This document shows positions 43,024 to 63,044 of a stretch of DNA of 64,000 bases, in pieces. Each line of letters begins with the position of its first letter. Position 1 is the first letter of the stretch. The notes beneath the pieces were generated by a model. The model worked only from the letters and a program-made list of their open reading frames with translations. It made no database searches and had not been told where the DNA came from. Source of the DNA: an uncultured Clostridium sp. (GTDB lineage: Bacteria > Bacillota > Clostridia > TANB77 > CAG-508); the NCBI GenBank assembly GCA_964608075.1, contig CAZSMG010000002.1, forward strand, positions 5,154 to 69,153, written 5' to 3'. The translations under genes and the position numbers were made by a program.

Positions 43024-43099
43024 CGCGGGGTGGAGCAGTTGGCAGCTCGTCGGGCTCATAACCCGAAGGTCGATAGTTCGAGTCTATCCCCCGCAACCA
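43024..43099 (+). tRNA. Initiator tRNA-fMet (anticodon CAT)
   Basis: C1 is opposite A72 (cgcgggg...ccccgcA). Three consecutive G-C pairs in the anticodon stem (tcggg-ctCATaa-cccga). Encoded CCA. Confidence 0.85.
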
Positions 43100-43110
43100 A
43101 GAATTTTATT

Positions 43111-43145
43111 AGAGTCGCAAGAGATTGTGGACTCTTATTTTTTTG
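43111..43145 (+). terminator. Rho-independent terminator after tRNA-fMet
   Basis: Hairpin agagtc-gcaagagattgtg-gactct followed by TTATTTTTTT. Confidence 0.7.
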
Positions 43146-43171
43146 ACCTTAAGCGTAATTTTGGCGTAAGT

Positions 43172-43189
43172 GGGGACAATTTGGGGACA
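43172..43189 (+). repeat. Arm-type repeat GGGGACAATTTGGGGACA, left copy
   Basis: Matches 59696-59713 (GGGGACAAATTGGGGACA) in the same orientation. Confidence 0.6.
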
Positions 43190-43293
43190 GTCCCTACATT
43201 TTTATGCATTAAATAGCATATTTTAGCCTAACTAATTTATATTAAACTTTGAAAATCAAAAAAGTAATTTTCGAGAAATTTTGAAAAGAGTTT

Positions 43294-44481
43294 TTATACG
43301 AGCATCTCCTCTAAAACATTACCAGCTTCTTTATTATGAGCTTCAACTGGATGTACATAGAAGTTTAAGGTAGTAGTTATTTGAGCATGCCCTAATCTTG
43401 ATGCTACAACAGCTACATCTACATTTTTAGATATAAGCAAAGTAGCATTTGTGTGTCGCAAACCATGAAAAGTAATTTTTGGTAAGTTGTTCTTTTCAAT
43501 AAAAGAACGAAACCAATCTGTAACTGTATCAGGATGCATTGGATTACCATTCCAAGTAACAAATAGCCTGTTTGAGTCATTCCATAAATCGCCAAATCTT
43601 TCTTTTTCAGCATCATACCAAGTTTTGTACTTATTAAGCATATTTATAACAATATCCGGAATTCCGACTTTTCTTATTGAACTATGTGTTTTTGGATCTT
43701 TTACGAAAATGCCTTTTTCAGATGTGTATTGACTTGCCTTAGTAATATTAACAAAACCTTCTTTAAAATCAATATCTGACCATTCTAAGCCTAATACTTC
43801 GCCTCTACGCATACCAGTAAACAATGTTAATATAACAATAGTTTGAAATTTGATTTCTTCATTTTCTAATGCTTCTAATAATTGTTTACATTGAATATCA
43901 TCGTAGTATTTAATTTGAGGTCTTTGGTGTTTAGGTGGCTTAACTCTGTCAGCTGGATTAAAGGGAAGTATTTGCCAATATACTGCGTTTTGTAGCATTG
44001 CATGTAGTAAACGATGATGCTCTAGTATTGTTTTAGAAGATAGACTCTTCATTACAGTCTTTCCATTATGATTTTTACATCTTTTTAATTGATGATCTTT
44101 TGAAAGATCATCGTAAAAATTCATAATGTGCGGTGGCTTGATATCGCATAACTTATAATGCCCAAAGTATGGAAGAATTCGAGATTCTAGCATTCCTTTA
44201 TATCTTTCATAAGTTTTTGGCGATAATTCCTTTTTGCCATAATTTTTAGCCCATAAATCTGTAAATTCTTTAAATGTCATTGAAGAGTTTTGCAAAACGA
44301 TACCATTTTCAACTTCATAAACAAAGTTCACAAGTTCTTTATCTGCTTCACGCCTACTATTTGCTTTGATGCTCTTAGTATATTTGATTCTGTTACCATA
44401 GCTGTCAAAACCATGTGATACAATTAATCTCCATGAGCGTTTGCCTCTCTTTTCAAGATACCCTGCCATTACTTTTTTCAC
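43294..44481 (-). CDS. int: Tyrosine-type site-specific integrase
   Basis: C-terminal catalytic region GLRHTNATLLI...LGHAQITTTLNFYVH (R, H-x-x-R, Y). N-terminal SAM-like domain. Adjacent to the tRNA. Confidence 0.9.
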   Translation of the reverse strand: MKKVMAGYLEKRGKRSWRLIVSHGFDSYGNRIKYTKSIKANSRREADKELVNFVYEVENGIVLQNSSMTFKEFTDLWAKNYGKKELSPKTYERYKGMLESRILPYFGHYKLCDIKPPHIMNFYDDLSKDHQLKRCKNHNGKTVMKSLSSKTILEHHRLLHAMLQNAVYWQILPFNPADRVKPPKHQRPQIKYYDDIQCKQLLEALENEEIKFQTIVILTLFTGMRRGEVLGLEWSDIDFKEGFVNITKASQYTSEKGIFVKDPKTHSSIRKVGIPDIVINMLNKYKTWYDAEKERFGDLWNDSNRLFVTWNGNPMHPDTVTDWFRSFIEKNNLPKITFHGLRHTNATLLISKNVDVAVVASRLGHAQITTTLNFYVHPVEAHNKEAGNVLEEMLV

Positions 44482-44525
44482 CTCCTTTCAGCATACCTAT
44501 GGCAAGGATTTTAAGTAATATTAAA

Positions 44526-44936
44526 TTAATATAAAATCATTCCAGAACCTAAAGCTTCATTAGGTCTTGAAATAAATCCAAATTTTTCATAAAAAGATTC
44601 TTTTCCTTTTGATGCACCTAAATAAGTTCTAATATTAGGATTAATCTTTTTATATTCTTTTATTTGAGTTAATAAGTTTTCCATTATTCCAGTGCCAATA
44701 TGTTTATTTTGATACTCAGGAATTACCATTATATCTTGAATATATAAAAATATAGTTTTATCCCCAATGATTCTTCCATATCCAATTAATTTATTATCAT
44801 CATAAACACATAATGAATATAAGGTATTCTCTAAAGCTGTTTCGACTATTGAATTTTCTCTAATTCCCCAACCTACAGAATCTGTTAAATAATTAAATTC
44901 TTCTGCAGAAGGAGTATGCATTATATATTTAATCAT
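44526..44936 (-). CDS. GNAT-family N-acetyltransferase
   Basis: Acetyl-CoA binding motif (QNKHIGTGIMENLL). 136 aa. Confidence 0.75.
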   Translation of the reverse strand: MIKYIMHTPSAEEFNYLTDSVGWGIRENSIVETALENTLYSLCVYDDNKLIGYGRIIGDKTIFLYIQDIMVIPEYQNKHIGTGIMENLLTQIKEYKKINPNIRTYLGASKGKESFYEKFGFISRPNEALGSGMILY

Positions 44937-44952
44937 ATTCTATACCTCTTTC

Positions 44953-46164
44953 TTAATAATTCTTTCTAGTTTCTTCTATCCATTTTTTAAATTCTTCTTC
45001 TGTTTTCAATCCGTTTTTAATATCTTTCTTAAATTCATTAGCTTCATTTTTCCATTGCTCATATTTTTCTAAATACATTGGAATATCAGGATTTCTATTC
45101 GCTAACATTTTTTTTGCTGATAAGGTTTTCCTATATAAAGAATTTATTTCATCTTTTTTTAACTTTTCATTATAAGTAATCATTGCTCCAATTTCTTGGC
45201 ACGTTTTGCTATGTTCATATATGTTGTTACAATATAAAGTATTCTTTTTTGAAGAAGGTATAAAGTAATTACCACAATGTTTACAAATGTATATTGGTGT
45301 ATTATTTTTTATTAATTCTAAAATACTTATAAAACAAGCAGTTTCAATTACATGACAGTTAAAACAAAGAGATGTAAAAAAATCATCATCATATTCTGTA
45401 GGATAATTTCTTATATATTCTGAAATTGCCTTGGCATTTTCTTCAAAATTGCCTGTATTAGGACATGAACCTATATTTAGAAATTTCATTGGTTCAACAT
45501 CATATGTAAGAGTTATATATGAACTTAATATTATGGACATGTCTGAATAATTAGTAAAATCAGCTTGCTTGTATATAAAAAATCTTTCTGCAATGGAAAA
45601 GTTTTCTAAATACTCTAAATTTGATAAGTTATTTATAAAATTGATGATTGTTTTAAACTGAAATTGATAGTCTATTAAAATTTTCTTTCGTTTTTCATAA
45701 TTGTTTTTACAAACCAAAATGAAGTCTTTTTCAGTTAAAAAAATATTTTCTTTATCGTTAGTAATATTTAATTTTGTATATTCATTAAAGGGGTTACCAA
45801 TATCTTCATCATCACTATTAAAGACTAAAGCTGGTAATCCATAATTATATATAAATTCTAAAAAAGAATTAAAATCTGTAAAATCATAGTTTAAAAATTT
45901 TAATAAAGTTGTTCCTAGTTTATTTTTTTCATCAGTAAAATCAGATTTATATAATTTGCAAATACTATCAGAATAGGTTGAAAGATACTTGGTATATTCT
46001 TTTTTTGTTTTAAATTCATCTCTTTCTTTAAGTAATGTATATGTGTCGTCTGCTTTATTATATATTGCATTTACTGTAGAAAAAGCGTCTCTTGTAAAAA
46101 GTTCCATATCATTTATGGTTGACATTTTCATATAATAGATTCTGGATACAACATCAAATTTCAT
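44953..46164 (-). CDS. Hypothetical protein (403 aa) with a C-terminal Cys-rich zinc-finger-like region
   Basis: CFNCH...CKHCGNYF...C pattern. No family assigned. Divergent from the xis-like gene. Confidence 0.5.
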   Translation of the reverse strand: MKFDVVSRIYYMKMSTINDMELFTRDAFSTVNAIYNKADDTYTLLKERDEFKTKKEYTKYLSTYSDSICKLYKSDFTDEKNKLGTTLLKFLNYDFTDFNSFLEFIYNYGLPALVFNSDDEDIGNPFNEYTKLNITNDKENIFLTEKDFILVCKNNYEKRKKILIDYQFQFKTIINFINNLSNLEYLENFSIAERFFIYKQADFTNYSDMSIILSSYITLTYDVEPMKFLNIGSCPNTGNFEENAKAISEYIRNYPTEYDDDFFTSLCFNCHVIETACFISILELIKNNTPIYICKHCGNYFIPSSKKNTLYCNNIYEHSKTCQEIGAMITYNEKLKKDEINSLYRKTLSAKKMLANRNPDIPMYLEKYEQWKNEANEFKKDIKNGLKTEEEFKKWIEETRKNY

Positions 46165-46195
46165 ATAATCCTCCCTGTTAGCAATTTAATTTTTG

Positions 46196-46300
46196 CAAAA
46201 TATGTTGTTAACTGATATCGAAAATCAACAAAGATTATTGACTAATCAAAAATTAACAATTAAAATACAAATTATAAAATTGTTAACAACATTATACACA
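46196..46300. promoter_or_regulatory. Divergent promoter/operator region with three TTGTTAAC-type palindromic motifs
   Basis: ttgttaac at 46205-46212, ttaacaa at 46253-46259, and the perfect 10-bp palindrome ttgttaacaa at 46280-46289. They lie between the divergently transcribed 403-aa ORF and the xis-like gene. Confidence 0.45.
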
Positions 46301-46356
46301 GCTAATTTTAAATTGTCAATACAAAATTTAAAATTTAGCGATTTAAAAGATGGGAG

Positions 46357-46572
46357 GTGATTAATATGGCAATAGAGAGAATGCAAAGGACAACTTTAAC
46401 AGCTAAAGAAGCAGCAGAATATTTAGGAATATCTTATTGGTTAATTACACAATTAGTTAAAAGAAAACAAATTCCGTGTTCTAGAGTTGGAAAAAGAATT
46501 TTATTTAGAAAAGAAGCATTAGATATTTATCTAAGCAAAAAAGAAAATGATTCTGTAGAAGAATCTTGTTAG
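46357..46572 (+). CDS. xis: Excisionase/Xis-like helix-turn-helix DNA-binding protein
   Basis: HTH_17-type motif LTAKEAAEYLGISYWLITQLVKRKQIPCSRVGKRILF. 71 aa. Confidence 0.7.
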   Translation: MINMAIERMQRTTLTAKEAAEYLGISYWLITQLVKRKQIPCSRVGKRILFRKEALDIYLSKKENDSVEESC

Positions 46573-46586
46573 AAAGAAGGGAGGAA

Positions 46587-47054
46587 ATGGGACAAGTTGG
46601 ATGGATAAAAGTAAATACAAATATATTTTCAAATAGAAAAATTAAAATCCTGCTAAAAGAAAGGGAAGGGGACACTTATTTTAGAATATGGATTCAAATT
46701 TTAACTATTGCTGGAGAATGTAACAGAGATGGTGGTTTATATATTAGTGATAATACACCATTTAAAATCAGAGATTTTACAAATATTATTGGAAAATCTT
46801 CGAAAACATTTACGAAAATCTTACAAAAATTTATTGATTTAGGAATGCTAATTTATAAAAATGATACATACTTCGTAAAGAACTGGAGCAAGTATCAAAG
46901 TGCCGATAAACTTAAGAAAATTGGAAAATCAAATAAAGTGATTGAAGAAAATTTAATTGAAAAAAGTTTTAATAATACAGAAGAAAAGATAAGAAAAGAA
47001 GAAAATAGAAAGGAGACCAGAGTAGATGAATCAAATTTTGAAACCCTCGATTAA
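46587..47054 (+). CDS. Phage replisome-organiser / DnaD-like N-terminal domain protein
   Basis: The winged-helix-like N-terminal region resembles phage replisome organisers. The start is set at the internal ATG (MGQVGW), which has an AGAAGGGAGG RBS. The track ORF uses a TTG at 46566 that overlaps the xis stop. Confidence 0.55.
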   Translation: MGQVGWIKVNTNIFSNRKIKILLKEREGDTYFRIWIQILTIAGECNRDGGLYISDNTPFKIRDFTNIIGKSSKTFTKILQKFIDLGMLIYKNDTYFVKNWSKYQSADKLKKIGKSNKVIEENLIEKSFNNTEEKIRKEENRKETRVDESNFETLD

Positions 47055-47895
47055 TAAAGATGATTTTATTGAGTGTGAATACTGCCAAAATAAATTATAT
47101 AGAAAAACAATTGAGTGGGAATTATATGGGACAAAAAGAACAATAGAATTAGATTATGAAAGATGTAATTGTAATGATGCACAAGCATACTGGAATGAAT
47201 ATGATTTAAATAAAATAAGGACGCTAGAGGAAGAAAAAAAACTAGAATTAATGCAAGAATTTTCAAAAAGAGTTGAGAGAATTATAAAAAATAGCAAGAT
47301 GAGTAAAAGAAATTTAAGTTATAAATTTAATAATTTTGAGCCAAATAATAGTAATAGAAAAATATTTAATAATTTGAAAAACTATAGTGAAAAATTAGTA
47401 AATGGTATAGAGAAAAAGGGATTAATTTTGGTAGGAAATAATGGAATTGGTAAGACACATTTAGCTTGTAGTATTGCAAATAAATTAATTGAAAATGGAA
47501 CACCAGTAATATATGGTACATTAATTAATTTATTAGCAGAATTAAGAAATTCATATGATACAGATAATAATATTTCAGAGATGGAAATTATCAAATTGTA
47601 TGAAAATGTTGACTTATTAATCATAGATGATTTAGGAAAAGAAAAACCAAGTGAATGGGGATTAGAAAAGTTATTTACTATTGTAAATAGTAGATATGAA
47701 AATAATTTACCAGTAATTATAACAACAAATTATAATCAAAATTCTTTAATGGAGAGACTAAGTTTAAATGGAGAAATTGAGACAGCAAAGTCAATTATTT
47801 CAAGATTATATGAGATGTGTTATCTTGTAAAAATAGATGATATAGATCATAGAATTCAAAAGAAAAAAGTTAGTAATTGCGACAACAATGACTAA
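47026..47895 (+). CDS. DnaC/IstB-like AAA+ helicase-loader ATPase with an N-terminal Cys-rich zinc-finger-like segment
   Basis: Walker A GNNGIGKTH, Walker B LLIIDDLGKE, and CEYCQN...CNCND upstream. It overlaps the preceding gene. Confidence 0.8.
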   Translation: MNQILKPSINKDDFIECEYCQNKLYRKTIEWELYGTKRTIELDYERCNCNDAQAYWNEYDLNKIRTLEEEKKLELMQEFSKRVERIIKNSKMSKRNLSYKFNNFEPNNSNRKIFNNLKNYSEKLVNGIEKKGLILVGNNGIGKTHLACSIANKLIENGTPVIYGTLINLLAELRNSYDTDNNISEMEIIKLYENVDLLIIDDLGKEKPSEWGLEKLFTIVNSRYENNLPVIITTNYNQNSLMERLSLNGEIETAKSIISRLYEMCYLVKIDDIDHRIQKKKVSNCDNND

Positions 47896-47979
47896 CTAAA
47901 AAGATTACTTTTTTAAATGTTTTCTATAAAAATTATAAATTATTTTTTCAAAAAAGTAAATAAAAATTGATAAAAAATT

Positions 47980-48220
47980 AGGACAAGCAAGTAGCAAAAT
48001 ATTTACACACTTGTCCTAATTTTTAAAAGAAAATGAATAAAAGATGAACAAAAAAGATCCCTCGGAGAGCCAAAAGGGTATTAGGGCATTTTGCCCTAAA
48101 CAGCAAAAAGGGTGTCAAGACACCATGCTGGCGAATAAAGGGCACTTAAAAATCCACTTTATTCGGAGCAAATAAATTTGCTCAAATTTTCTGAAATTCG
48201 CTTTCGCTATTTCAGAAAAT
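47980..48220. promoter_or_regulatory. Cluster of five consecutive inverted repeats (candidate oriT / single-strand origin / operator array)
   Basis: aggacaag...cttgtcct (47980-48017), tagggcattttgcccta (48082-48098), ggtgtcaagacacc (48111-48124), gagcaaataaatttgctc (48166-48183), ttctgaaattcgctttcgctatttcagaa (48189-48217). Local G+C is elevated. Confidence 0.45.
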
Positions 48221-48245
48221 ATAAGATCAGAAATGGAGAAAAAAT

Positions 48246-48866
48246 ATGAGAGTAATTATGGATGAATTTGATCATGTCTTTTTACCTTATTGGAAAATAC
48301 TAGACAAATTAAAAATATTAAATATAAAAACTAAAAATGGAAAAGAGATAAGTCATAAAGATTTGCGAAAGGCAATATCTGTTATGATAAAAAAACATCC
48401 TACATGTAGATGGAGAAGTGAAAAAATTAGAAGTAAAAGATATTACATTTTGTTTGAAGGATATCTATGGTTAATATACGTATATTTTCAATCAGAAAAG
48501 AAACAAATAGATGCTGATGTAGATTTTTTCAAACTGAGAATAGGAGTATATGAAGAATTTTTAAAAGTAAATCCTGAATCATTATGGAATGAAGATATAA
48601 GTTTTTCGGATTTAGAAAATTATTTTCACAGAAAGAAAGATACAATACATAGAGCAATGGTGAAAATGGCTAAAGAAAATTTTGGAAATACTTTTACTTA
48701 TTATGATAATGATAAATTACTTGTTTCAAAAGAAGGCATTGAATGGCTATGTAAAAATTGTTTCAAGCAAAAGTATTTGGAATTATTAGAAGAATACAAA
48801 ATGGAATTAACAGAAAAATACATTGAAGCAGGATATGTTTATGATGAATTTTTTGGAATGAATTAA
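48246..48866 (+). CDS. Hypothetical protein (206 aa)
   Basis: ORF immediately downstream of the hairpin cluster. No recognisable motif. Confidence 0.5.
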   Translation: MRVIMDEFDHVFLPYWKILDKLKILNIKTKNGKEISHKDLRKAISVMIKKHPTCRWRSEKIRSKRYYILFEGYLWLIYVYFQSEKKQIDADVDFFKLRIGVYEEFLKVNPESLWNEDISFSDLENYFHRKKDTIHRAMVKMAKENFGNTFTYYDNDKLLVSKEGIEWLCKNCFKQKYLELLEEYKMELTEKYIEAGYVYDEFFGMN

Positions 48867-48880
48867 AGGAGGTATCGATT

Positions 48881-49282
48881 ATGAAACATTATTTAAATCC
48901 AGATCAAAGAAGAAAAAGTATAAAAGTATGGGTTTCTGATGAAGAAAGAGCTTTAGTTGAAGCTAAAGCATACAATTATGGCTATAGAAGGATTGCACCA
49001 TATATTAGAGATGCAGCAATTTATGAAAGAGTAACTAATGTAGAAGTAAAAGGAGAAAAAGAAATTCTTAATGCATATGCTGAGAATACTAGAGAAGTTA
49101 AAAGTATCGTTAAAGATATAAGACATATTTGTAAATTTGCTACACAAATTTCTGAAAGAGATAGACAGGAACTTTTACATCTAATGAAAGCCATATATAA
49201 AAAGCAAAATAAAATGCTAGATCTTATTGATAAAAAACTTGATTTAGAGGTATGGCAAGAAGTTAATCGTAATAAAAATTAA
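48881..49282 (+). CDS. MobC-like ribbon-helix-helix mobilisation/relaxosome accessory protein (tentative)
   Basis: N-terminal RKSIKVWVSDEERALVEAKAYNYGYRRIAPYIRDAAI pattern typical of MobC/RHH proteins. AGGAGG RBS. Confidence 0.5.
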   Translation: MKHYLNPDQRRKSIKVWVSDEERALVEAKAYNYGYRRIAPYIRDAAIYERVTNVEVKGEKEILNAYAENTREVKSIVKDIRHICKFATQISERDRQELLHLMKAIYKKQNKMLDLIDKKLDLEVWQEVNRNKN

Positions 49283-49354
49283 AAATAAATAATGTGTAAT
49301 TTATTGAGAAAAAAAGATTATTATGATAGAATAACAAAAGTTAAGAGGTGAAAT

Positions 49355-50356
49355 ATGATAGAATTAGGAGAGATATATAATCAAAAGTTGAAAAATAAAA
49401 AATTTATAGATTTATTTTGTGGACTTGGTGGATTTAGATTGGCCTTAGAATCTTATGGCGCAAAATGTGTATTTAGTTCAGACATAGACAAACATGTAAG
49501 TAAGACATATGAAAATAATTTCGGAGATTATCCATTAAGTGACATAACAAAAGTTGATGAGAAAGATATTCCTAAACATGATATTTTATGTGCGGGTTTT
49601 CCATGTCAAGCATTTAGTATATCTGGAAAGCAAAAAGGATTCGAAGATACCAGAGGGACTCTATTTAGAGAAGTTGTGAGAATTGCTAGTTATCATCAAC
49701 CAGAATTATTATTATTAGAAAATGTAAAGAATTTAGAAAAACATGATAGTGGAAGAACTTTTAAAGTAATAAAGGAAAATATAGAAAACATCGGATATAA
49801 TATGTATTCAAAGGTTATAAATGCTTCTAGATATGGTATTCCTCAATCAAGAGAAAGAATTTACATGGTATGCATTAGAAAAGACTTAGATAATAATAAT
49901 TATAAGTTCCCTCTGCCTGTAAATAAAGAAAGATGTGTTAATGACATACTACTTAATAACGGGGAAGAAAAACAATATATCATTAACAAACCATATAAAT
50001 TAAAAGAGAGAAATCAGCAAATAAAAATGTTTAAAGTTTATGACAAGCCAGTAAGAATTGGAACTGTAAATAAAGGTGGACAAGGCGATAGAATATATGA
50101 TCCAATGGGACAAGCAATAACATTGTCGGCAGAAGGTGGAGGAACTGGTTCTAAAACGGGATTATATTACATAAATAACGAGGTTAGAAAACTACATCCT
50201 AGGGAATGTGCAAGATTGATGGGATATCCAGAAAATTATATTATTGATGAATCAGTTAATCAAGCACAAAAACAATTCGGCAACAGTGTAGTTGTAGATG
50301 TTTTGCAATATGTAATAAAAAGTATCATAGATGAGGGGAGTATAAAAAATGGATAG
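49355..50356 (+). CDS. DNA (cytosine-5)-methyltransferase, M.HhaI-like
   Basis: Motif I FCGLGGF, motif IV GFPCQAFS, motif VI LLENV, and the C-terminal RKLHPRECARLMGYP...QFGNSVV. Extensive collinearity with M.HhaI as recalled from memory, including the TRD segment GKGGQG-RIY...ITLSA-GGG. Confidence 0.9.
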   Translation: MIELGEIYNQKLKNKKFIDLFCGLGGFRLALESYGAKCVFSSDIDKHVSKTYENNFGDYPLSDITKVDEKDIPKHDILCAGFPCQAFSISGKQKGFEDTRGTLFREVVRIASYHQPELLLLENVKNLEKHDSGRTFKVIKENIENIGYNMYSKVINASRYGIPQSRERIYMVCIRKDLDNNNYKFPLPVNKERCVNDILLNNGEEKQYIINKPYKLKERNQQIKMFKVYDKPVRIGTVNKGGQGDRIYDPMGQAITLSAEGGGTGSKTGLYYINNEVRKLHPRECARLMGYPENYIIDESVNQAQKQFGNSVVVDVLQYVIKSIIDEGSIKNG

Positions 50357-51092
50357 TTCAGGGGGTTCAAAAATAGCAAAAGATGGATTTGAAAATGAAA
50401 AGGATATTGCTAATAAATTTATTAATTGGAAAGATGATATAGAAGCACAACAATGGTTAAAAACCATGGGATATAATCTAAATGATATTGAATATGTTTA
50501 TGCAGAAGTTTTACATGGATATAAAACGGATGTACAAGTTCAAGTAACAATAAAACTCAAAAATATTATTGATGCACAAAATTTACAAGTAAAGTTAGTA
50601 AGTAATGCAAAAGGATTCAATCAAATAGATAAAAGATGGATAAAAAATTATGCTGAAATGTGGGAAATGCCTGATAATATAGTTAGATTGCTAAAATATT
50701 ATACGGGAGAGTTTGAACCATATAAGAAAGATACAAGAGATAAAAGAAGAATGTTTATGGATGAATTTTCAGAACAAGAACAAAATGAAATATTAGAATA
50801 CTTTGAACAAAATAAAATGCTTATTATCTTAGACATTGTAAAAGGAAGGGGAAAATTTGCAGCCGAATGGATTTTAGTTGCACAAAAGTATGAAGATATA
50901 TTTAGATGGATATTGAAGCCTATAAATGTTGCTATTAATCATTATAGTGAAGGAAAAGTAGAAATAACTAATAGAGGAAACTTGAAAATTGGAAGAATTG
51001 GAATGCAGAGGAAGGGTGGAGATGCGGGAAGAGAAACCGCAAATATGTTACAGTTTAAAGTAGATCCAATTGAATTGTTTAATTTAAATTAA
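50349..51092 (+). CDS. Putative cognate Type II restriction endonuclease (247 aa)
   Basis: Its start overlaps the methyltransferase stop by 8 nt (translational coupling). The size is typical of small Type IIP enzymes. A terminator hairpin follows at 51108-51145. Confidence 0.5.
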   Translation: MDSSGGSKIAKDGFENEKDIANKFINWKDDIEAQQWLKTMGYNLNDIEYVYAEVLHGYKTDVQVQVTIKLKNIIDAQNLQVKLVSNAKGFNQIDKRWIKNYAEMWEMPDNIVRLLKYYTGEFEPYKKDTRDKRRMFMDEFSEQEQNEILEYFEQNKMLIILDIVKGRGKFAAEWILVAQKYEDIFRWILKPINVAINHYSEGKVEITNRGNLKIGRIGMQRKGGDAGRETANMLQFKVDPIELFNLN

Positions 51093-51164
51093 TATAATTT
51101 TAGTACAAAAGAAAAGTAGAATGAGAAGAAATCATTCTACTTTTCTGGTCTAAAGGGGAGAAAA

Positions 51165-54100
51165 ATGGAAGAGAACACAAATTATGAAGTATTAATTCCT
51201 AATAATATGATTGAAAATAAGGCAGAAGACGCATTAGAATTTGCATTAAAAAATGAGAAGATAAGAAATGTTGCGATAACTGGGCAATATTCTTCAGGAA
51301 AATCAAGTATGATACAATCATATTTTGGTAAATATTGTAAAGAAAAGGAATATTTAAATATATCATTAGCGACATTTGAGAAAAAAGAAAATGCAAATGA
51401 ACCTATTGAAGAATCTAATTCATTGGAAAGAGTTATAATAGAAAAGTTATATTATTCTTTTTTAAAAAAATATGATAAACAAGAAAATATAAAAGAATCT
51501 ATACTAACAGGTATTCTTGTTGCATTTATTAATATAGGAATATACTTATTTAATATTGAAGCAATAAGAAATAGTTTAAATGATAACTTTTGGACAACTC
51601 TAATATTTATTTTCTTAGAAATAATATGTTTAACAAGCATAATAGGATGTTCTATATCATTTGTAATGAATTTTCAGAAGATTAAATTGAAACTAGGAGA
51701 TGTTGAAGTAGAAGTAAATCATAATAGTAAAGAAACTAGCCGTAATTTATTAAATGAGGAAATAGATTTTATTGTAAAAATTATGAGTATTGCTAAATAT
51801 AAGTATATTGTATTTGAAGATTTAGATAGATTTCAAAATCCAAAGATATTTGAAAGATTGAGGGATTTAAATATTACATTAAATTCGACATTAAAGAATA
51901 AAGTGAAATTTATATATGCGATAAAAGATGAAATGTTTATTGCAGACAATAGAACTAAATTTTTTGATTTTATTATACCTGTTGTGCCATATGTGTCTTA
52001 TGAAAATTCAGGAGAAGAATTGTTAAAAATAATAAGAAAGCATGGATTGGAGAATGAACTGTCCGAAGATTTTATTTTAGATATTGCACTATATATACCT
52101 GATATGAGAATATTAAAAAACACAATAAACGAATACATTATTTATAAGAAAACTCTTGATAAGAAGCCACCAAATTATGAGAAATTATTTTCTATTTTAT
52201 TATATAAAAATACTTGTTCACAGGATTTTGCCAAACTACAAAATAAAGACGGTGAAGTATATAAATGTTTTTCTAAAAAAAGCGAAGTAATCGAGAAATA
52301 TATTGAAGAAAAACAAGAAGAAATTGAAGACAAAAAGAAAGAACATAAAGAACTAGAAAAGAATTTAATATCCAAAAACAGTATTAAAGAACTTGCAGTA
52401 TATTATATGAAAAGTATATCTAAAGATTATCAAGTGACATTAAAAAGCATAGAGGGAAAAGAAGTAAGAATACAATTAGGTATGAATGTAGAGAATATTT
52501 CAGATAACATTTTATTTTCAGACAATACAACAATAGAATATGTATATAATGGAAGTTGGAAAACAGAAAATTTATCTAATTTTTTCAAAGAAAAGTGCCC
52601 AGGATTTTTTGAACAATATGAGATTTTTAGAGAAGGTGTAGATGATATAAAAGAAAAAATTAGCATGGAAATAGGAAAGATAAACGAAGAGATTGATAAG
52701 ATAAGAGAATGTACATTAAGTGAACTATTGCAAGAGAATGGAAAAATTGTAACAGTAAGTTTAGGGAAATATAGTGATTTAATTAAATATTTGCTAAATA
52801 ATGGCTATATTGATGAAAATTATAGTACATATATTAATAAATTTCACGAAGGAAGTATTACAGAGAATGATTATAATTTTATAATGAATGTAAGAAATGG
52901 AAAACAAAATAATTATAAAGATAAATTAGACAATACTATAAAAATAATAAAAAGACTAAAAAATGCAGAATTCAAAAAAGAAGAAATATTGAATATAGAT
53001 ATATTAGATGTTCTGATTGAAAATGATCTATATGTTGAGAAAAAGAATATATTTTTTTCAACACTAATAAAATCAAATAGATATGTAGAATTTATTAAAT
53101 ATTGTATATGTGAATCAGAAACATTTAAAAACAAAAATAAAATGATTACAAATTTATGCAAATTAGATAAGGACATATTGAACAAAGTGCAAGATTCTAA
53201 AATTGAAAATAGATATAAAAATTTCATTCTGGAAGATATTATAATAAAAATAGAAATAGATAATTTAAAAGAACTAAATAATATAGATGAGATACTTAAA
53301 TATAGTGAAGAAAACAACCTACTAAAAAAGGCAAAAATAGTTGATATAAAAGATAAAATTGACCAATTTGATATAAAGTATAATAATATTTCTGAATTTA
53401 AAGATAATATTGATTTATATAAATACATTGTAGAGAATAATAAATATAAGATTAATTATGAAAATATATTAGAAATACTTATGAACGAAAGTAAGAGTAA
53501 TAAAGATGAAATAGAAGAAGAGAACTACTATAGTATATCTAAAAATAAACAGTTAAAAAAATATATAGATGAAGATATAGAATTTTATATTGGTAATGTA
53601 TATAGTAAATTACCTAAAAAACAAAAGAATCCTATAGGGATAGTAGTAGATCTACTAAATAATTCTAATATGAATGCTGAAAGTAAACGAAAAATTATAA
53701 TAAAAGAAATTAACAAAATTGAAGACATATCAGAAATACAAGACAGTGGCTTATGGAAAGTTATATTTGACAATAATTTAGTAAAATTAGGATGGAAAAA
53801 TATAAACAATTATTATGAGAAATTAGGATTAGATGAAACATTAATAAATATATTTAATGACAAAGAAAAAAGAAAGTTATTATTACAAGATAATATAAAA
53901 ATTGAAGATAATAGTAATTCAGAATTTATAAGAGATTTATTGTTATCTAATAATTTAAATGAAGAGGCACATAGTTTAATATTAAAAAATAGTGAATACA
54001 AATTAAGTAATGTTGAAATAAGCGAATTAAAAGAAGAGAAACTTCTGAAATTAGTAAATAATAAAAGAATTGAATTTAGCAATGAGATGATAGAAAAGGT

Positions 54101-54635
54101 GAGGGCTTATTCAGTAAAAATGCTAATAGCATTTATAAAGAATAATTATAATAATTTTTATAAAGAAATTGATAATGATAGTATTGTATTTAATTTGGAA
54201 GAAATAAATGGAATTCTTGAATCAGATGTTACACCAAATATGAAAAATAAGTGTATTAATATGATTCGAAATGATGAAATAGAAAGTCTACCAATAGTTT
54301 TATTAGAGAATATTTCATTAGTATCTATAAATAATAACTTAAAAGATAATATAAGTGAAGAAATTCTATTAAAGATTATTATGAATATACAAAATATAGA
54401 ATCAAAGATAAAATTGATAAACTTAAATTTTAGTAAAGTAAGTAGAGATAATATAGATATATTACTAAAAAGTTTAGGTGAGGATTATTATAAAATAATT
54501 GTTAACAGAACAAGGCCAAGTTTAAAACATAATGAATCTAATATATTACTATTAGAAAATATCAAAAGTTTAGGATATAAAATTAAACATGAAACTAATG
54601 GGCAAACTATAAAATTAAAAAATACAATTAGATAA
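51165..54635 (+). CDS. KAP-family P-loop NTPase (1156 aa) with TM helices inserted in the NTPase domain and a long K/E/N-rich helical C-terminal region
   Basis: Walker A ITGQYSSGKSS, Walker B KYIVFEDLDRF. Two to four hydrophobic helices (ILTGILVAFINIGIYLF, TTLIFIFLEIICLTSIIGCSISFV) lie between them. This is the KAP hallmark. Confidence 0.8.
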   Translation: MEENTNYEVLIPNNMIENKAEDALEFALKNEKIRNVAITGQYSSGKSSMIQSYFGKYCKEKEYLNISLATFEKKENANEPIEESNSLERVIIEKLYYSFLKKYDKQENIKESILTGILVAFINIGIYLFNIEAIRNSLNDNFWTTLIFIFLEIICLTSIIGCSISFVMNFQKIKLKLGDVEVEVNHNSKETSRNLLNEEIDFIVKIMSIAKYKYIVFEDLDRFQNPKIFERLRDLNITLNSTLKNKVKFIYAIKDEMFIADNRTKFFDFIIPVVPYVSYENSGEELLKIIRKHGLENELSEDFILDIALYIPDMRILKNTINEYIIYKKTLDKKPPNYEKLFSILLYKNTCSQDFAKLQNKDGEVYKCFSKKSEVIEKYIEEKQEEIEDKKKEHKELEKNLISKNSIKELAVYYMKSISKDYQVTLKSIEGKEVRIQLGMNVENISDNILFSDNTTIEYVYNGSWKTENLSNFFKEKCPGFFEQYEIFREGVDDIKEKISMEIGKINEEIDKIRECTLSELLQENGKIVTVSLGKYSDLIKYLLNNGYIDENYSTYINKFHEGSITENDYNFIMNVRNGKQNNYKDKLDNTIKIIKRLKNAEFKKEEILNIDILDVLIENDLYVEKKNIFFSTLIKSNRYVEFIKYCICESETFKNKNKMITNLCKLDKDILNKVQDSKIENRYKNFILEDIIIKIEIDNLKELNNIDEILKYSEENNLLKKAKIVDIKDKIDQFDIKYNNISEFKDNIDLYKYIVENNKYKINYENILEILMNESKSNKDEIEEENYYSISKNKQLKKYIDEDIEFYIGNVYSKLPKKQKNPIGIVVDLLNNSNMNAESKRKIIIKEINKIEDISEIQDSGLWKVIFDNNLVKLGWKNINNYYEKLGLDETLINIFNDKEKRKLLLQDNIKIEDNSNSEFIRDLLLSNNLNEEAHSLILKNSEYKLSNVEISELKEEKLLKLVNNKRIEFSNEMIEKVRAYSVKMLIAFIKNNYNNFYKEIDNDSIVFNLEEINGILESDVTPNMKNKCINMIRNDEIESLPIVLLENISLVSINNNLKDNISEEILLKIIMNIQNIESKIKLINLNFSKVSRDNIDILLKSLGEDYYKIIVNRTRPSLKHNESNILLLENIKSLGYKIKHETNGQTIKLKNTIR

Positions 54636-54750
54636 TAATTATTGTATAAAATTTCAATATATAAGATATTAACTTAAATTCATTTCGTTGTCAAAAGGTG
54701 TTATTTATGATAGAATGCTATCAAATAATTATATTTTTAGGAGACCAATT

Positions 54751-54936
54751 ATGAAAATTAAGTGTTTAATTTGTGGAAACATAATAGAATCAAAAAGTGT
54801 ACATGATTTAGCATCTTGCAAATGTGAATCGTGTTATATTGATGGTGGAAGTTATTATGCACATATAGGTGCAAGAGACTTTAATAAAATTGTTAAAATT
54901 TTGGATGATGGAATAGAAGTTAAATGTTGCAATTAA
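54751..54936 (+). CDS. Small zinc-ribbon protein (about 61 aa)
   Basis: CLICGN...CKCESC...CC pattern. AGGAG RBS 7 nt upstream of the MKIKCLICG start. The track ORF starts at 54688. A terminator-like hairpin (gcaaaata...tattttgc plus T-run) follows. Confidence 0.5.
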   Translation: MKIKCLICGNIIESKSVHDLASCKCESCYIDGGSYYAHIGARDFNKIVKILDDGIEVKCCN

Positions 54937-55091
54937 TATATGAATAACAAAAGAAAGGCAAAATAGTAATGTGATTAATTTTACAAGATTATTTTGCTTT
55001 TTTTGATAATTAATTACAAGTTTCGACAAATTATTTAATTAAAAAGTAATATAATATTAAAGTAATAATATATGTAAAAGGAGTCAAGTAA

Positions 55092-57440: not shown

Positions 57441-57699
57441 TTTTGAAGAAAATGAGGAAGCATATGCAATTTTTTTTGAAGAAACAGAAGTATATACAAT
57501 TAATAAGGATAATTTAAAGGTAGATGGAACTAGATTTTATGAAACTTTTTTTAGCGAATACTCTATTGGCGATACCATAGAATTAAATAAAGGCAATAGT
57601 GTTGATAATAGCAATAAACTATCAATTGCTATTTATGATACTATAAACAAATTGATAAATGAGATAATTAAAAAAATAGATGAAGAAAAAGAGGAGTAA
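57424..57699 (+). CDS. Small acidic protein (91 aa) translationally coupled to the PHP-ATPase gene
   Basis: ATG at 57424 overlaps the last 17 nt of the upstream gene in another frame. A terminator follows directly. Confidence 0.5.
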   Translation: MKKIYNFEENEEAYAIFFEETEVYTINKDNLKVDGTRFYETFFSEYSIGDTIELNKGNSVDNSNKLSIAIYDTINKLINEIIKKIDEEKEE

Positions 57700-57727
57700 G
57701 AAGGCGAAACAATCGCCTTCTTTGAGA
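57700..57727 (+). terminator. Rho-independent terminator
   Basis: Hairpin gaaggcg-aaacaa-tcgccttc followed by TTTG. Confidence 0.7.
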
Positions 57728-57732
57728 GTATA

Positions 57733-59197
57733 GAAAAAGTTGTGTAAATAAATCCTTCCGTGATAAAATATAAAATATCAAGGAGGGATTTTTTCTATGG
57801 GTAAAAAAGTAGAAAAAGAAAAAAATGAATTAGTAGAGGAGTTTTTTAGAAGAAATGATCCAAAAAATATTAAATCTATGAATGATATGTATGCAGCATG
57901 GAAAGATTTCTTTGCTCCTGCTTTCCAACAATTGCTAGATGCAGAAATGGAGGCTAAAATTGGTTATTCTAAAAATGAAAGAACAGATAATAACAATTAT
58001 CGAAATGGATATTATCCAGAAAGAACTGTAGCAACAGAAATGGGAGATATTCCAGTAAAAGTACCTAGAGATAGAAATGGAGAAATTGACTCTAATTTAG
58101 TTCCTAAATATTCACGAACAGCAAATGGATTTGATGAAAAGGTAATATCTATGTATGCTTTAGGAATGTCTGATAAAGATATTCAAGAACAAATAAAGGA
58201 AATATTTGGTTGTAATCTTTCACCAGACATGATAAGTGATATAACAGATAAGATTATACCAGAAATACAAGAATGGCAAAAAAGGAAACTAGAAAGTGTT
58301 TATCCAATAGTATTCATAGATGCAACACATTTCCATGTCCGCGATAACGGACAAATAGTAAAGAAAGCTGCATATGTAGTGTTAGGAATTGATAAAGATG
58401 GAATGAAGAAAGTATTAACAATAACAATAGGAGAAAATGAAAGTGCAAAATATTGGATGACAGTATTAAATGAACTCAAAAATCGAGGAGTACAAGATAT
58501 TCTAGTATTATGTGCAGATGGACTAACAGGACTAAAAGATGCAATATCAGCTATTTATCCTAAAACAGAATATCAAAGATGTATAGTACATCAAATAAGA
58601 AACTCATTAAAGTATGTTCCATACACAGATAGAAAAGAATTAGCTAATGACTTAAAAACAGTTTACAAGGCAAGTACAGAAGAAATCGGCTATACAAATT
58701 TATTAGAATTAGAAGAAAAATGGAAAAATAAATATCCTGGTGCAATTCAAAGTTGGATAGATAATTGGGATGTACTTTCCGTATTTTTCAAATTCTCAGC
58801 AGAAATACGAAAAATAATGTATACAACAAATGCAATAGAAAGCTTAAATAGTACATATAAAAGGATTAACAGAAATAGAAATGTATTTCCAACAGATATG
58901 TCTTTACTAAAAGTTCTTTATCTTTCAACATTGAAAGCAGAGAAAAAATGGTCAAGAATGGTTGATAAATGGGACTTATGTTTGTCCCAATTTAGAATTA
59001 TGTATGAAGGTAGAATATAGTTAAAAGCCTAAAATAATAGGCTTAAGAAGAAATTTTCTTAAGTCCTATTAATTTTACACAACTTTTTCTAAAAAATTGA
59101 TTTTTTAGAAAAATATTATTAAAATAAACATAGTTATAAAAATATTAATTTTTTCAAGTTATCAATCGGAAGGAAATCCGATTTACACAACTTTTAC
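57733..59197 (+). mobile_element. IS256-family insertion sequence, with a second nested copy of the right inverted repeat
   Basis: Left IR gaaaaagttgtgtaaataaatccttcc (57733-57759). Right IR-like ...tcctattaattttacacaactttttc (about 59063-59090). A second IR copy ggaaggaaatccgatttacacaacttttac (59168-59197). A mutator-type transposase gene lies between them. Confidence 0.8.
57797..59020 (+). CDS. IS256-family (mutator-type) transposase
   Basis: 407 aa. Conserved DDE region (VFIDATHFHVRDNG...LVLCADGLTGL...YQRCIVHQIRN). Confidence 0.9.
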   Translation: MGKKVEKEKNELVEEFFRRNDPKNIKSMNDMYAAWKDFFAPAFQQLLDAEMEAKIGYSKNERTDNNNYRNGYYPERTVATEMGDIPVKVPRDRNGEIDSNLVPKYSRTANGFDEKVISMYALGMSDKDIQEQIKEIFGCNLSPDMISDITDKIIPEIQEWQKRKLESVYPIVFIDATHFHVRDNGQIVKKAAYVVLGIDKDGMKKVLTITIGENESAKYWMTVLNELKNRGVQDILVLCADGLTGLKDAISAIYPKTEYQRCIVHQIRNSLKYVPYTDRKELANDLKTVYKASTEEIGYTNLLELEEKWKNKYPGAIQSWIDNWDVLSVFFKFSAEIRKIMYTTNAIESLNSTYKRINRNRNVFPTDMSLLKVLYLSTLKAEKKWSRMVDKWDLCLSQFRIMYEGRI

Positions 59198-63032: not shown

Positions 63033-63044
63033 TGGAGGAGTAAA

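What the first reader, a model, noticed from the sequence alone, without database searches (positions are those of the whole stretch)
47980..49282. Five consecutive hairpins followed by a MobC-like RHH protein: candidate oriT or single-strand origin
An about 240-bp GC-enriched non-coding stretch carries five inverted repeats in a row: ggacaag/cttgtcc, agggca/tgccct, ggtgtc/gacacc, gagcaaa/tttgctc, ttctgaaat/atttcagaa. It lies upstream of a 206-aa unknown protein and a MobC-like ribbon-helix-helix protein. Such arrays are typical of transfer origins or sso elements. No relaxase is visible, so the island may be mobilised in trans, or the 206-aa protein may be an unrecognised relaxase or Rep.
Basis: partly seen in the sequence, partly recalled or inferred. 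Interest (0 to 1): 0.55.

Follow-up and report, generated by a model that had tools for sequence, protein, structure and literature searches.

The report
Transfer origin of a relaxase-less island
The hairpin-rich stretch is most likely the transfer origin (oriT) of a small integrated element that has lost its own nicking enzyme and must borrow one from a related element, which is a recently recognised but ordinary way for gut-bacterial islands to spread.

Summary
The hairpins are real. The stretch has 45% GC against a 25% background and folds far better than shuffles (z = -6). The first hairpin (47973-48024) is a separate terminator-like stem. The conserved unit is a ~160-nt, seven-helix motif at 48058-48219. 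It is not in Rfam. It occurs once, in one orientation, in more than 150 gut Clostridia loci, with strong compensatory changes. Both strands fold equally well. In elements lacking the 206-aa gene it sits between a terminator and a promoter, so it acts as DNA rather than as an mRNA leader. In relatives the gene order is motif, ORF206, NikA/MobC-like RHH, PF03432 relaxase (nearest characterised relative: Tn1549, MOBP). The motif's left half shares a 15-specified-base core (a 17-nt pattern) and a GGG/CCC palindrome with the region upstream of Tn1549 mobC. It survives in a distant element where an ORF206-like domain is fused to MobC, and it is replaced where a MOBV relaxase sits instead. The window's island has an integrase, Xis and a replication module but no relaxase. 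Best reading: an oriT mobilised in trans. ORF206 is a predicted winged-helix DNA binder, not a relaxase or Rep. The ssoA criteria fail. The role of the covarying right half (P5-P7) is open.

The parts
43024..43099 (+). tRNA-Met gene next to the island's integrase. It is the probable integration site.
   Evidence: ARAGORN. A 15-nt repeat of its anticodon region lies at 59831, giving a tentative right end.
43294..44481 (-). Tyrosine integrase of the island.
   Evidence: PF00589 E = 3.9e-26, PF14659.
46357..46572 (+). Xis-like HTH_17 / Tn916-Xis protein.
   Evidence: PF12728 E = 1.3e-11, PF09035.
46566..47895 (+). Replication module: phage replisome organiser (46566-47054) and an IstB/DnaC-like ATPase (47026-47895).
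   Evidence: PF09681 E = 3.5e-23; PF01695 E = 8.8e-23.
47973..48024 (.). Terminator-like hairpin (15-bp perfect stem flanked by an A-run and a T-run). It is separate from the conserved motif.
   Evidence: I2. A hairpin plus T-run lies within 80 nt upstream of 97 of 122 distinct motifs, with different sequences in different element classes.
48058..48219 (+). Conserved multi-hairpin motif (P0/P1 to P7). It is the proposed oriT region.
   Evidence: CM R1 scores 190.8 bits here and finds one copy per locus on one strand. 92.4% of cells are paired, and 26 pairs carry compensatory changes.
48081..48099 (.). P2 palindrome TTAGGGC-ATTTT-GCCCTAA. Its sequence is nearly invariant.
   Evidence: The same TYRGGG-N-CCCYRA palindrome lies upstream of mobC in Tn1549, in a C. 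perfringens plasmid and in L304. It occurs only twice in 1.1 Mb of unrelated DNA.
48101..48130 (.). P3 (CAGCA/TGCTG) enclosing hairpin P4 (GGTGT-CAAG-ACACC, 48111-48124). It is the proposed relaxase recognition core.
   Evidence: Covariation. The core is retained in the distant locus L304 (CM E = 1.4e-8). A 17-nt pattern derived from L304 hits Tn1549 once, upstream of mobC, and 0 of 200 shuffles match.
48121..48135 (.). Most invariant block, CACCA-N-GCTGGCGAA. It is the candidate nic region (inferred only).
   Evidence: Invariant columns A71-A84 of alignment A2. The junction in the MOBV hybrids L001 and L030 falls at G|YTGG.
48132..48219 (.). Right half: P5 (48132-48165), P6 (48166-48183) and P7 (48187-48219, loop TCGCTTTCGCT). 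The stems covary strongly and the function is unresolved.
   Evidence: Helices 6-8 carry 20 pairs with compensatory changes. The right half is retained without the left half in L001 and L030, and is absent in L304.
48246..48866 (+). ORF206 (family F0). A conserved unannotated protein, predicted to be a winged-helix DNA binder and a probable relaxosome accessory factor.
   Evidence: 1969 homologue clusters, none with a Pfam domain. AF2 pLDDT 87.5. Only weak Xis/wHTH fold matches. An F0-like::MobC fusion lies upstream of a relaxase.
48881..49282 (+). ORF133. A NikA/MobC-like ribbon-helix-helix relaxosome accessory protein.
   Evidence: PF21983 E = 3.3e-6. 24% identity to Tn1549 MobC, E = 6e-5. 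Its orthologues (F1) directly precede the relaxase F4 in 20 loci.
49355..51092 (+). Cargo next to the motif: a C5 DNA methylase and an R.HinP1I-type endonuclease (restriction-modification system).
   Evidence: PF00145 E = 1.7e-94; PF11463 E = 2.1e-89.

Best explanation
The motif at 48058-48219 is the origin of transfer of a ~17-kb integrative mobilisable element inserted beside tRNA-Met. The element keeps its oriT and two DNA-binding accessory proteins, ORF206 and the RHH protein ORF133, but has no relaxase and no mating apparatus.

Proposed mechanism (all steps inferred):
1. Int and Xis excise the element as a circle.
2. ORF133, and probably ORF206, bind the sequence-conserved left half: the P2 palindrome and the two GC-AAAAA-GGGT repeats.
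3. They recruit a Tn1549-like MOBP relaxase made by a co-resident sister element of the type 'motif-ORF206-RHH-relaxase'.
4. The relaxase recognises the P3/P4 stem-loop and cuts in or next to the invariant CACCA-N-GCTGGCGAA block.
5. The single strand is exported through a helper's type IV secretion system.
6. In the recipient the hairpins reform on the single strand, for relaxase-mediated closure and possibly for priming.
7. The element's replisome-organiser/DnaC module and integrase then establish it.

Shown here: the structure is conserved, the site acts at the DNA level, it is syntenic with relaxase modules, and it shares sequence hallmarks with the Tn1549 mobC-upstream region.

Inferred: nicking, which strand is cut, supply of the relaxase in trans, and the roles of ORF206 and of P5-P7.
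For: 1. The motif is conserved as structure. It occurs in 51 of 61 loci found through ORF206, always on the same strand and once per locus. 92.4% of cells are paired, against 80% in shuffles and 39-50% in slid controls. There are 284 double-change cells against 99 expected, with 0 of 500 shuffles as high.
2. It acts as DNA, not as an mRNA leader.
   - There is no strand asymmetry. The mean dG(+) minus dG(-) is 0.008 kcal/mol, and G-U cells number 55 against 49 A-C cells outside P0.
   - 97 of 122 distinct motifs have a terminator-like hairpin just upstream.
   - In serine-recombinase elements without ORF206, the motif is followed by a strong promoter, TGnTATAAT or TTGACA-17-TATAAT.
3. Synteny. 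In relatives the order is motif > ORF206 > (HTH) > RHH > PF03432 relaxase (E = 6.9e-34) > methylase > integrase, with no other sizeable non-coding gap.
4. The relaxase's nearest characterised relatives are Tn1549 MobC plus relaxase, typed MOBP.
   - A 17-nt core pattern (CAAGCANAGGGNGTGTA) and the TTRGGG...CCCYAA palindrome recur upstream of mobC in Tn1549.
   - The same nested P3/P4 topology is predicted there.
5. Natural 'swap' cases.
   - A distant element with an ORF206-like::MobC fusion followed by a relaxase keeps only the left half, P2-P4.
   - In L001 and L030 a Mob_Pre (MOBV) relaxase (E = 6.5e-44) is present instead, and exactly the left half is replaced.
6. The window has no relaxase.
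7. Published precedent.
   - 'iOriT' islands with defence genes near the oriT (bioRxiv 10.64898/2026.01.13.699239).
Against: - There is no experimental nick site, and no match to any curated oriT could be run because oriTDB was not available.
- The covariance model of the whole motif does not score the Tn1549 region significantly (6.6 bits, E = 0.29). The link to Tn1549 rests on short shared blocks, and the order of the palindrome and the P3/P4 core differs.
- That the mapped Tn1549 oriT lies in exactly this interval is recalled from Tsvetkova et al. 2010, which could not be read.
- Seven helices with heavy covariation are more than a typical oriT needs.
- In ORF206-adjacent loci only 20-35 nt separate P7 from the start codon and no promoter was located. 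The motif may therefore be transcribed there, and an RNA role is not excluded.
- No sister element with a relaxase is seen in this 64-kb window.
Confidence: 0.68

Rival explanations
1. The motif is a structured RNA. It would be either a 5' leader that controls the ORF206-RHH(-relaxase) operon by protein binding, riboswitch-like sensing or antitermination, or a small RNA read from the minus strand that ends at the P1 stem plus U-run.
For: - It has multiple helices with strong covariation and A-rich linkers, as curated RNA families do.
- It always faces the same way as the downstream genes and ends 20-35 nt before the ORF206 start in most loci.
- No convincing promoter was found between motif and gene in those loci.
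- The putative outer helix P0 uses T-G pairs that work only on the plus strand (58 GU against 3 AC).
- On the minus strand, P1 followed by a T-run looks like a terminator.
Against: - No Rfam family matches, even at E <= 10.
- The two strands fold equally well and wobble pairs are rare and symmetric, which is unusual for RNA.
- A terminator sits just upstream in 97 of 122 motifs, with little room for a promoter.
- In elements lacking ORF206 a strong promoter lies downstream of the motif, so the motif is outside that transcript.
- The halves behave as separable DNA modules that track the relaxase type.
- The known conjugation antitermination system conAn has the opposite order and a PF17362 protein that ORF206 does not match.
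Confidence: 0.14
2. The motif, or its right half P5-P7, is a single-strand or vegetative replication signal. It would be either an sso-like priming site that converts the transferred or rolling-circle strand to duplex, or the origin used by the adjacent replisome-organiser/DnaC module.
For: - In the window's class it lies directly after the replisome organiser and DnaC-like genes.
- P5-P7 are conserved as structure only, as sso elements are.
- P5-P7 persist when the left half is swapped for a MOBV-associated block.
- The P7 loop reads TAGCG(A/T) on the minus strand in the window, like the ssoA CS-6 (consensus from PMC4598088).
- Sso elements are known to sit beside oriT in pMV158 and in ICEBs1 (from memory).
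Against: - The ssoA hallmark RSB is absent from the whole window, with 0 matches at up to 3 mismatches.
- The CS-6-like loop is present in only 16 of 42 sequences.
- An sso works on one strand only (PMC5703833), yet no strand bias is seen.
- There are no iterons and no AT-rich unwinding region. The stretch is the GC-richest of the island.
- Class-A and class-C elements carry the motif without the replisome-organiser/DnaC module.
- This reading does not explain the left half, which tracks the relaxase.
Confidence: 0.12
3. The hairpins are ordinary terminators and operators of neighbouring genes and have no role in DNA processing.
For: - Hairpin 1 (47973-48024) does look like a terminator.
- P6 is flagged as terminator-like on the plus strand, and P1 and P4 on the minus strand.
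- P2 is a perfect palindrome that could be an operator for the RHH protein or ORF206.
Against: - Terminators are not conserved as a fixed seven-helix array with invariant junction sequences across elements whose proteins are only 56-60% identical.
- The array persists in elements with unrelated flanking genes.
- It shares specific blocks with the mobC-upstream region of Tn1549.
Confidence: 0.04

Closest known systems
Tn1549-type (MOBP7) mobilisation module: oriT upstream of mobC, an RHH MobC, and a PF03432 relaxase
   Same: - The relaxase of sister elements is 34.5% identical to the Tn1549 relaxase over 246 aa, and the record is typed MOBP.
- ORF133 aligns with Tn1549 MobC (E = 6e-5).
- The non-coding region upstream of the accessory gene holds several stem-loops.
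- It shares CAAGCA-N-AGGG-N-GTGTA and a TTRGGG...CCCYAA palindrome.
   Different: - An extra conserved gene, ORF206, sits between the site and the RHH gene.
- The palindrome precedes rather than follows the P3/P4 core.
- Three further covarying hairpins (P5-P7) are added.
- The whole-motif covariance model does not detect the Tn1549 region.
- The window's element has no relaxase at all.
Relaxase-less integrative elements that carry only an oriT ('iOriT' islands; MGEs with the MOBP7-IME oriT in Faecalibacterium)
   Same: - It is an island with an integrase and no relaxase or mating genes.
- It carries the same cis site as relaxase-encoding sister elements.
- Defence genes lie next to the site, as described in bioRxiv 10.64898/2026.01.13.699239 and PMC12084326. 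The window shows this.
   Different: - The window's element still keeps two putative accessory proteins.
- Its host clade is uncultured gut Clostridia of about 25% GC.
- The oriT family was not covered by those studies, as far as could be checked.
pMV158 oriT with neighbouring ssoU/ssoA, and ICEBs1 oriT with sso1 (transfer origin next to a single-strand origin)
   Same: There are several inverted repeats, hairpin-dependent processing is implied, and a structure-only module lies beside a relaxase-specific module.
   Different: - The relaxase family differs (MOBV or MOBT there).
- The RSB and CS-6 hallmarks are not met.
- This comparison rests partly on memory.
conAn processive antitermination system of pLS20-type conjugation operons
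   Same: A GC-rich structured element plus a small conserved protein sit at the head of a transfer operon in Firmicutes.
   Different: - The conAn2 RNA lies downstream of conAn1, and ConAn1 carries PF17362 (PMC8191782).
- ORF206 has no such domain.
- The motif behaves as DNA.

Membership tests
oriT of a MobC/MOBP (Tn1549-like) mobilisation module | It lies in the non-coding region at the head of the accessory-protein/relaxase operon. | tested here: met
   In class-A relatives the motif directly precedes ORF206-RHH-relaxase. In the window it precedes ORF206-RHH, but the relaxase gene is missing.
oriT of a MobC/MOBP (Tn1549-like) mobilisation module | Sequence similarity to a characterised oriT of the same relaxase clade. 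| tested here: inconclusive
   - A 17-nt core pattern and the GGG/CCC palindrome are shared with the Tn1549 mobC-upstream region.
- The same nested fold is predicted there.
- The whole-motif CM is not significant there.
- The published minimal oriT could not be read.
oriT of a MobC/MOBP (Tn1549-like) mobilisation module | An inverted repeat next to a conserved nick sequence. | tested here: met
   Hairpin P4 is followed by the invariant CACCA-N-GCTGGCGAA. The nick itself is not known.
oriT of a MobC/MOBP (Tn1549-like) mobilisation module | It is nicked by the cognate relaxase and is sufficient in cis for mobilisation. | not testable with these tools
   This needs a nicking assay and a mating assay.
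ssoA-type single-strand origin | The conserved RSB sequence TTATGCCGAGAAAATTT. | tested here: not met
   There are 0 matches in the window at up to 3 mismatches. The consensus comes from PMC4598088.
ssoA-type single-strand origin | CS-6 (TAGCGT) in the terminal loop, and function on one strand only. | tested here: not met
   TAGCG[AT] occurs in the P7 loop (minus strand) in only 16 of 42 sequences. There is no strand asymmetry in pairing.
Any curated RNA family (Rfam 15) | A covariance-model match. | tested here: not met
   Only four chance-level hits, with E = 5-9 and scores far below the gathering thresholds.
conAn antitermination system | A ConAn1 protein with the PF17362 domain, and the RNA element downstream of it. 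| tested here: not met
   ORF206 has no Pfam hit, and the order is reversed (PMC8191782).
RHH relaxosome accessory protein (NikA/MobC-like), for ORF133 | An N-terminal RHH domain, and a gene directly upstream of a relaxase. | tested here: met
   - PF21983 scores 27.6 bits against a cutoff of 27, which is marginal.
- The pairwise E-value against Tn1549 MobC is 6e-5.
- Orthologues precede the relaxase in 20 loci.
- In the window itself the relaxase is absent.
HUH relaxase or Rep, for ORF206 | An HUH or 3H metal-binding motif with catalytic Tyr, on an alpha/beta nuclease fold. | tested here: not met
   - There is no Pfam, PHROG, NCBIfam or PDB sequence hit.
- Only one His is invariant (H51).
- The AF2 model is helical with two small beta-hairpins.
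- Fold matches are only weak wHTH/Xis-type hits.

The most novel reading that the evidence does not exclude
ORF206 and the structure-only right half (P5-P7) together form a separate, undescribed single-strand-DNA module. An example would be an establishment or priming signal read by a new winged-helix protein family. This module can be coupled to different relaxase-specific nick modules, MOBP-type here and a MOBV-associated block in L001 and L030. Under this reading the element's core is 'ORF206 + hairpins' rather than 'relaxase + oriT'.
Probability: 0.2. Interest if true: 0.65.

Novelty: new member of a known kind. Interest (0 to 1): 0.4.

Why it matters
If correct, this defines an uncharacterised oriT family and a new relaxosome-associated protein family (about 2,000 clusters at 90% identity, none with a Pfam domain). 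Both are very common in human and animal gut Clostridia. It would also show that many small islands there are relaxase-less hitchers sharing one transfer origin. These islands carry restriction-modification and other defence cargo. The motif's covariance model could be used to find such islands, and its invariant block gives a concrete candidate nick site to test. It does not change the concepts of conjugation.

Tried and rejected
- Rfam scan at E <= 10: nothing.
- DNA search of 47900-49300 against PLSDB plasmids and INPHARED phages: no match.
- tblastn of ORF206 against the same collections: no match.
- Viral contig scans. The 14-base core gave only chance hits, 0 of the 80 loci tested by CM. 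The 20-base pattern gave none.
- conAn antitermination: rejected on domain and gene order.
- ssoA: rejected on RSB and CS-6.
- ORF206 as relaxase or Rep: rejected.
- RNAalifold on the MAFFT alignment recovered only part of the structure because of register shifts. It was replaced by a hand-drawn structure, a covariance model and a re-alignment.
- Whole-motif CM on the Tn1549 region: not significant.
- The Tn1549 oriT paper (PMC2812457) is not held, so its mapped minimal oriT could not be compared.
- Promoter of the ORF206 operon: not located. The simple scan found none next to the motif, and hand inspection was inconclusive.
- An att repeat at the 3' end of tRNA-Met was not found. Only a 15-nt repeat of the anticodon region at 59831 turned up.
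- The resemblance of CATGCTG|G to the MOBP nick consensus YATCCTG|Y is from memory and weak, because the T is not conserved. It is kept only as a lead.
Full report
**Observation**

All five listed inverted repeats are present. Two more helices were overlooked: CGAATAAAGG/CTTTATTCG at 48132-48165 and CTC-GGA-GAG at 48061-48069. GC content rises to 0.45 at 48050-48149 in a background of about 0.25. The 216 nt from 48030 to 48245 fold at -60.7 kcal/mol, against -37.6 +/- 3.8 for dinucleotide shuffles (z = -6.1, 0 of 200 as good). The complementary strand folds just as well (z = -5.7). ORF206 (48246-48866) and ORF133 (48881-49282) follow.

**Context in the window**

The stretch lies inside an island inserted beside tRNA-Met (43024-43099). 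The genes, in order, are:
- a tyrosine integrase, a GNAT and a DUF6076 protein;
- an Xis-like HTH_17 protein, a phage replisome organiser and an IstB/DnaC-like ATPase;
- the hairpins, then ORF206 and ORF133;
- cargo: a C5 methylase with an R.HinP1I endonuclease, a YobI NTPase, a TrlF-like ATPase and an IS256-family transposase.

ORF133 hits Pfam NikA-like (PF21983, E = 3.3e-6, just above the cutoff). ORF206 hits nothing in Pfam or PHROGs, only a far-sub-threshold chance match in NCBIfam, and only chance-level matches among PDB sequences. No relaxase is encoded anywhere in the window; the best tblastn hit with 21 relaxases has E = 0.17.

**The motif is a conserved family**

ORF206 belongs to a large unannotated family: 1969 clusters at 90% identity, none with a Pfam domain. 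A scan of one genome per species returned 61 loci, all from uncultured low-GC gut Clostridia or Bacilli.

The same hairpin array lies upstream of the ORF206 homologue even where the protein is only 56-60% identical. I drew a seven-helix structure (P0/P1 to P7), built a covariance model from it, and re-aligned the sequences.
- The model finds exactly one copy per locus, always on the ORF206 strand, in 51 loci.
- On 42 distinct sequences, 92.4% of cells are paired, against 80.3% in column shuffles and 39-50% when partners are slid.
- 26 pairs show compensatory changes, and 284 cells are changed on both sides against 99 expected (0 of 500 shuffles).
- Single-base indels in loops show that the 43-codon ORF across the stretch is not a gene.
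- Rfam has no match.
The 28 loci checked with the covariance model were genuine, two (L213, L232) are chance matches, and most of the remainder have the family's flanking genes. The loci whose record names state a source are human-gut assemblies. The same pattern found none in viral contigs.

Hairpin 1 (47973-48024) is not part of this unit. Its sequence differs between element classes, but a stem plus T-run lies within 80 nt upstream of 97 of 122 distinct motifs, so it is a terminator-like boundary.

**DNA or RNA?**

Three results point to DNA.
1. The two strands fold equally well across 36 sequences. The mean difference is 0.008 kcal/mol, and the plus strand is better in 16 of 36. Outside the doubtful helix P0, wobble cells (55) are no commoner than A-C cells (49), among 1789 Watson-Crick cells. 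Functional RNAs normally show a clear bias.
2. The motif is usually preceded closely by a terminator-like stem.
3. A class of small elements ends in a large serine recombinase (Resolvase + Recombinase + Zn ribbon) and carries the full motif without ORF206. In these, a strong promoter (TGnTATAAT, or TTGACA-17-TATAAT) lies downstream of the motif. The motif therefore sits in an untranscribed spacer.

An RNA role is not excluded for the ORF206-adjacent loci. There only 20-35 nt separate P7 from the start codon, and I could not place the promoter.

**Link to conjugative DNA processing**

I clustered the neighbouring genes of all loci. This gives a canonical order in the more distant relatives: acidic unknown proteins, an LPD1 polyvalent-protein domain and a DUF1281/Api92-like protein; then the motif; then ORF206, sometimes a small HTH protein, the RHH protein, a 543-aa protein, a DNA methylase and a tyrosine integrase.
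- The 543-aa protein is a MobA/VirD2-type relaxase (PF03432, E = 6.9e-34; HIDKGHIHNHI motif).
- An annotated 20-kb example shows a ~12-kb mobilisable element with no type IV secretion genes.
- The motif is the only sizeable non-coding region of that operon.

The window's class (integrase, DUF6076, Xis, replisome organiser, DnaC-like, motif, ORF206, sometimes RHH, then defence cargo) never has the relaxase.

**Link to Tn1549**

The relaxase's closest plasmid-borne relatives are the MobC-relaxase pair of Tn1549 on pMG2200, at 34.5% identity and typed MOBP. ORF133 aligns along its length with Tn1549 MobC (E = 6e-5). [quoted passage not shown] The putative oriT of MOBP7 IMEs lies upstream of mobC and recurs in relaxase-less islands (PMC12084326).

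**Dissecting the motif with natural variants**

A profile search of 1.84 billion representatives shows that the ORF206 family is compact: 192 hits, and full-length members are 170-212 aa. It has one telling variant, P0226. There an ORF206-like region (hhalign probability 98%, E = 1.8e-13) is fused to a MobC domain (PF05713, E = 1.3e-11), and the gene overlaps the start of a PF03432 relaxase gene.

The 280-nt region upstream of that gene contains a diverged left half of the motif: TCAGGGG-CTA-CCCCTGA, CAAGCA...TGCTTG, GGTGT...ACACC and CACCATGCTTG. The model scores it at 31.3 bits, E = 1.4e-8. It has no P5-P7.

The converse occurs in L001 and L030. A divergently oriented Mob_Pre (MOBV) relaxase (E = 6.5e-44) lies upstream. 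The left half (P1-P4) is replaced by a different conserved ~70-nt block, with the junction at G|YTGG. P5-P7 and ORF206 remain.

So the left half travels with the PF03432 relaxase, and the right half is a separable module.

**Sequence hallmarks shared with Tn1549**

A 17-nt pattern taken from the fusion locus, CAAGCANAGGGNGTGTA, occurs once in 5.7 kb of Tn1549 sequence. It lies in the mobC-upstream spacer, and 0 of 200 shuffles match. The Tn1549 stem carries a compensatory T-A to A-T change. As single-stranded DNA, that spacer is predicted to form the same topology: an outer CAAGC/GCTTG helix enclosing a GGGAGTG/CACTCCC hairpin.

A TYRGGG-N2-7-CCCYRA palindrome like P2 lies within 60 nt upstream of mobC in Tn1549 and in a C. 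perfringens plasmid. It is also present in the fusion locus, in L303 and in the window. It occurs twice in 1.1 Mb of unrelated DNA.

The whole-motif model does not score Tn1549 significantly, and the order of the blocks differs. This is therefore distant relatedness, not identity.

**ORF206**

The AlphaFold model is confident (pLDDT 87.5, pTM 0.83). It consists of helices and two small beta-hairpins, arranged as two winged-helix-like modules joined by long helices. Foldseek finds no significant full-length match. It gives only weak local matches to Xis/HTH_17, MarR-type winged helices and the oriT-proximal DNA binder TraN of pIP501. Distant family members give sub-threshold HTH_17, Mor and HTH_11 hits at the second module. 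Only one histidine is invariant. ORF206 is not an HUH enzyme. Together with the MobC fusion, the best reading is a DNA-binding relaxosome accessory or regulator.

**Alternatives tested**

- The ssoA single-strand origin is defined by RSB and CS-6 (PMC4598088; PMC5703833). RSB is absent, and a CS-6-like loop appears in only 16 of 42 sequences.
- conAn antitermination has the reverse order and a PF17362 protein.
- A vegetative origin is unlikely. There are no iterons, only a two-copy GC-AAAAA-GGGT repeat 34 nt apart. The site is GC-rich, and it also occurs in elements without the replication module.

**Conclusion**

The array at 48058-48219 is most likely the oriT of a relaxase-less integrative mobilisable element, of the kind recently called iOriT (bioRxiv 10.64898/2026.01.13.699239). 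It would be served in trans by the Tn1549-like relaxase of sister elements.

Still inferred: the nick position (candidate 48125-48135), the transferred strand, the role of ORF206, and above all the function of the strongly covarying P5-P7 half. I put the oriT reading at about 0.68. It is a new family within a known kind. It is worth a mobilisation test, but it is not conceptually surprising.

Noticed in passing
L001:5099-6000 and L030:3364-3918: A Mob_Pre (MOBV) relaxase gene lies divergently upstream of a motif that keeps only P5-P7. The left half is replaced by a different ~70-nt block that is conserved between the two loci (ATAATTATAGTYGAAG...GTCATAAGRAAATGTCAAG). It may be a MOBV-type oriT fused to the same right half.
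   Followed up: partly
L304:2276-2938: P0226 is a 220-aa protein in which an ORF206-like region is fused to a MobC (PF05713) domain. It lies directly upstream of a PF03432 + DUF6040 relaxase. It is seen on a single 4.2-kb contig, so an assembly or frameshift artefact is not excluded.
   Followed up: partly
window 59831-59845: A 15-nt exact repeat (CTCATAACCCGAAGG) of the anticodon-loop region of tRNA-Met (43055-43069) is followed by a weakly tRNA-like tail. It may be the island's right attachment site, which would put the island at about 43055-59845.
   Followed up: partly
window 49355-63431: Defence-type cargo lies downstream of the motif: an M/R.HinP1I-like restriction-modification pair, a YobI P-loop NTPase (1156 aa), a TrlF-like AAA ATPase (782 aa) and an IS256-family transposase. 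Beyond the tentative island end lie a PLD/helicase/DUF3427 protein and a NUDIX hydrolase.
   Followed up: partly
L249, about 7560-7690 (in the orientation used): A strong promoter (TTTACA-17-TATAAT) drives a ~70-nt GC-rich transcript that ends in a terminator (GGGAGAAG...CTTCTCTC-TTTTT), immediately upstream of an orphan motif. This possible small RNA or leader was not examined.
   Followed up: no
window 48209-48226 and the equivalent columns of alignment A5: A -10-like TAnnnT hexamer sits in the 3' arm of P7 in all motif classes (for example TATAAT in L037 and TACAAT in L047). The ORF206 promoter may overlap the end of the motif, but no matching -35 was found.
   Followed up: partly
window 48068-48088 and 48102-48122: There are two direct copies of AGC(C)AAAAGGGT-N-T..., 34 nt apart and 76% identical. 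Each spans the 3' side of one helix and the 5' side of the next, and they could be binding sites for the RHH protein.
   Followed up: no
window 10767-10936: A weak covariance-model hit (19.5 bits, E = 0.006) overlaps the tRNA-Lys/Glu cluster. I judged it spurious.
   Followed up: yes
Loci L015/L029, L009/L036, L017/L048, L025/L034, L028/L056: Several metagenome-assembled genomes carry two different motif-bearing elements. This is consistent with families of elements sharing one cis site. A relaxase-bearing and a relaxase-less pair in the same genome was not demonstrated.
   Followed up: no
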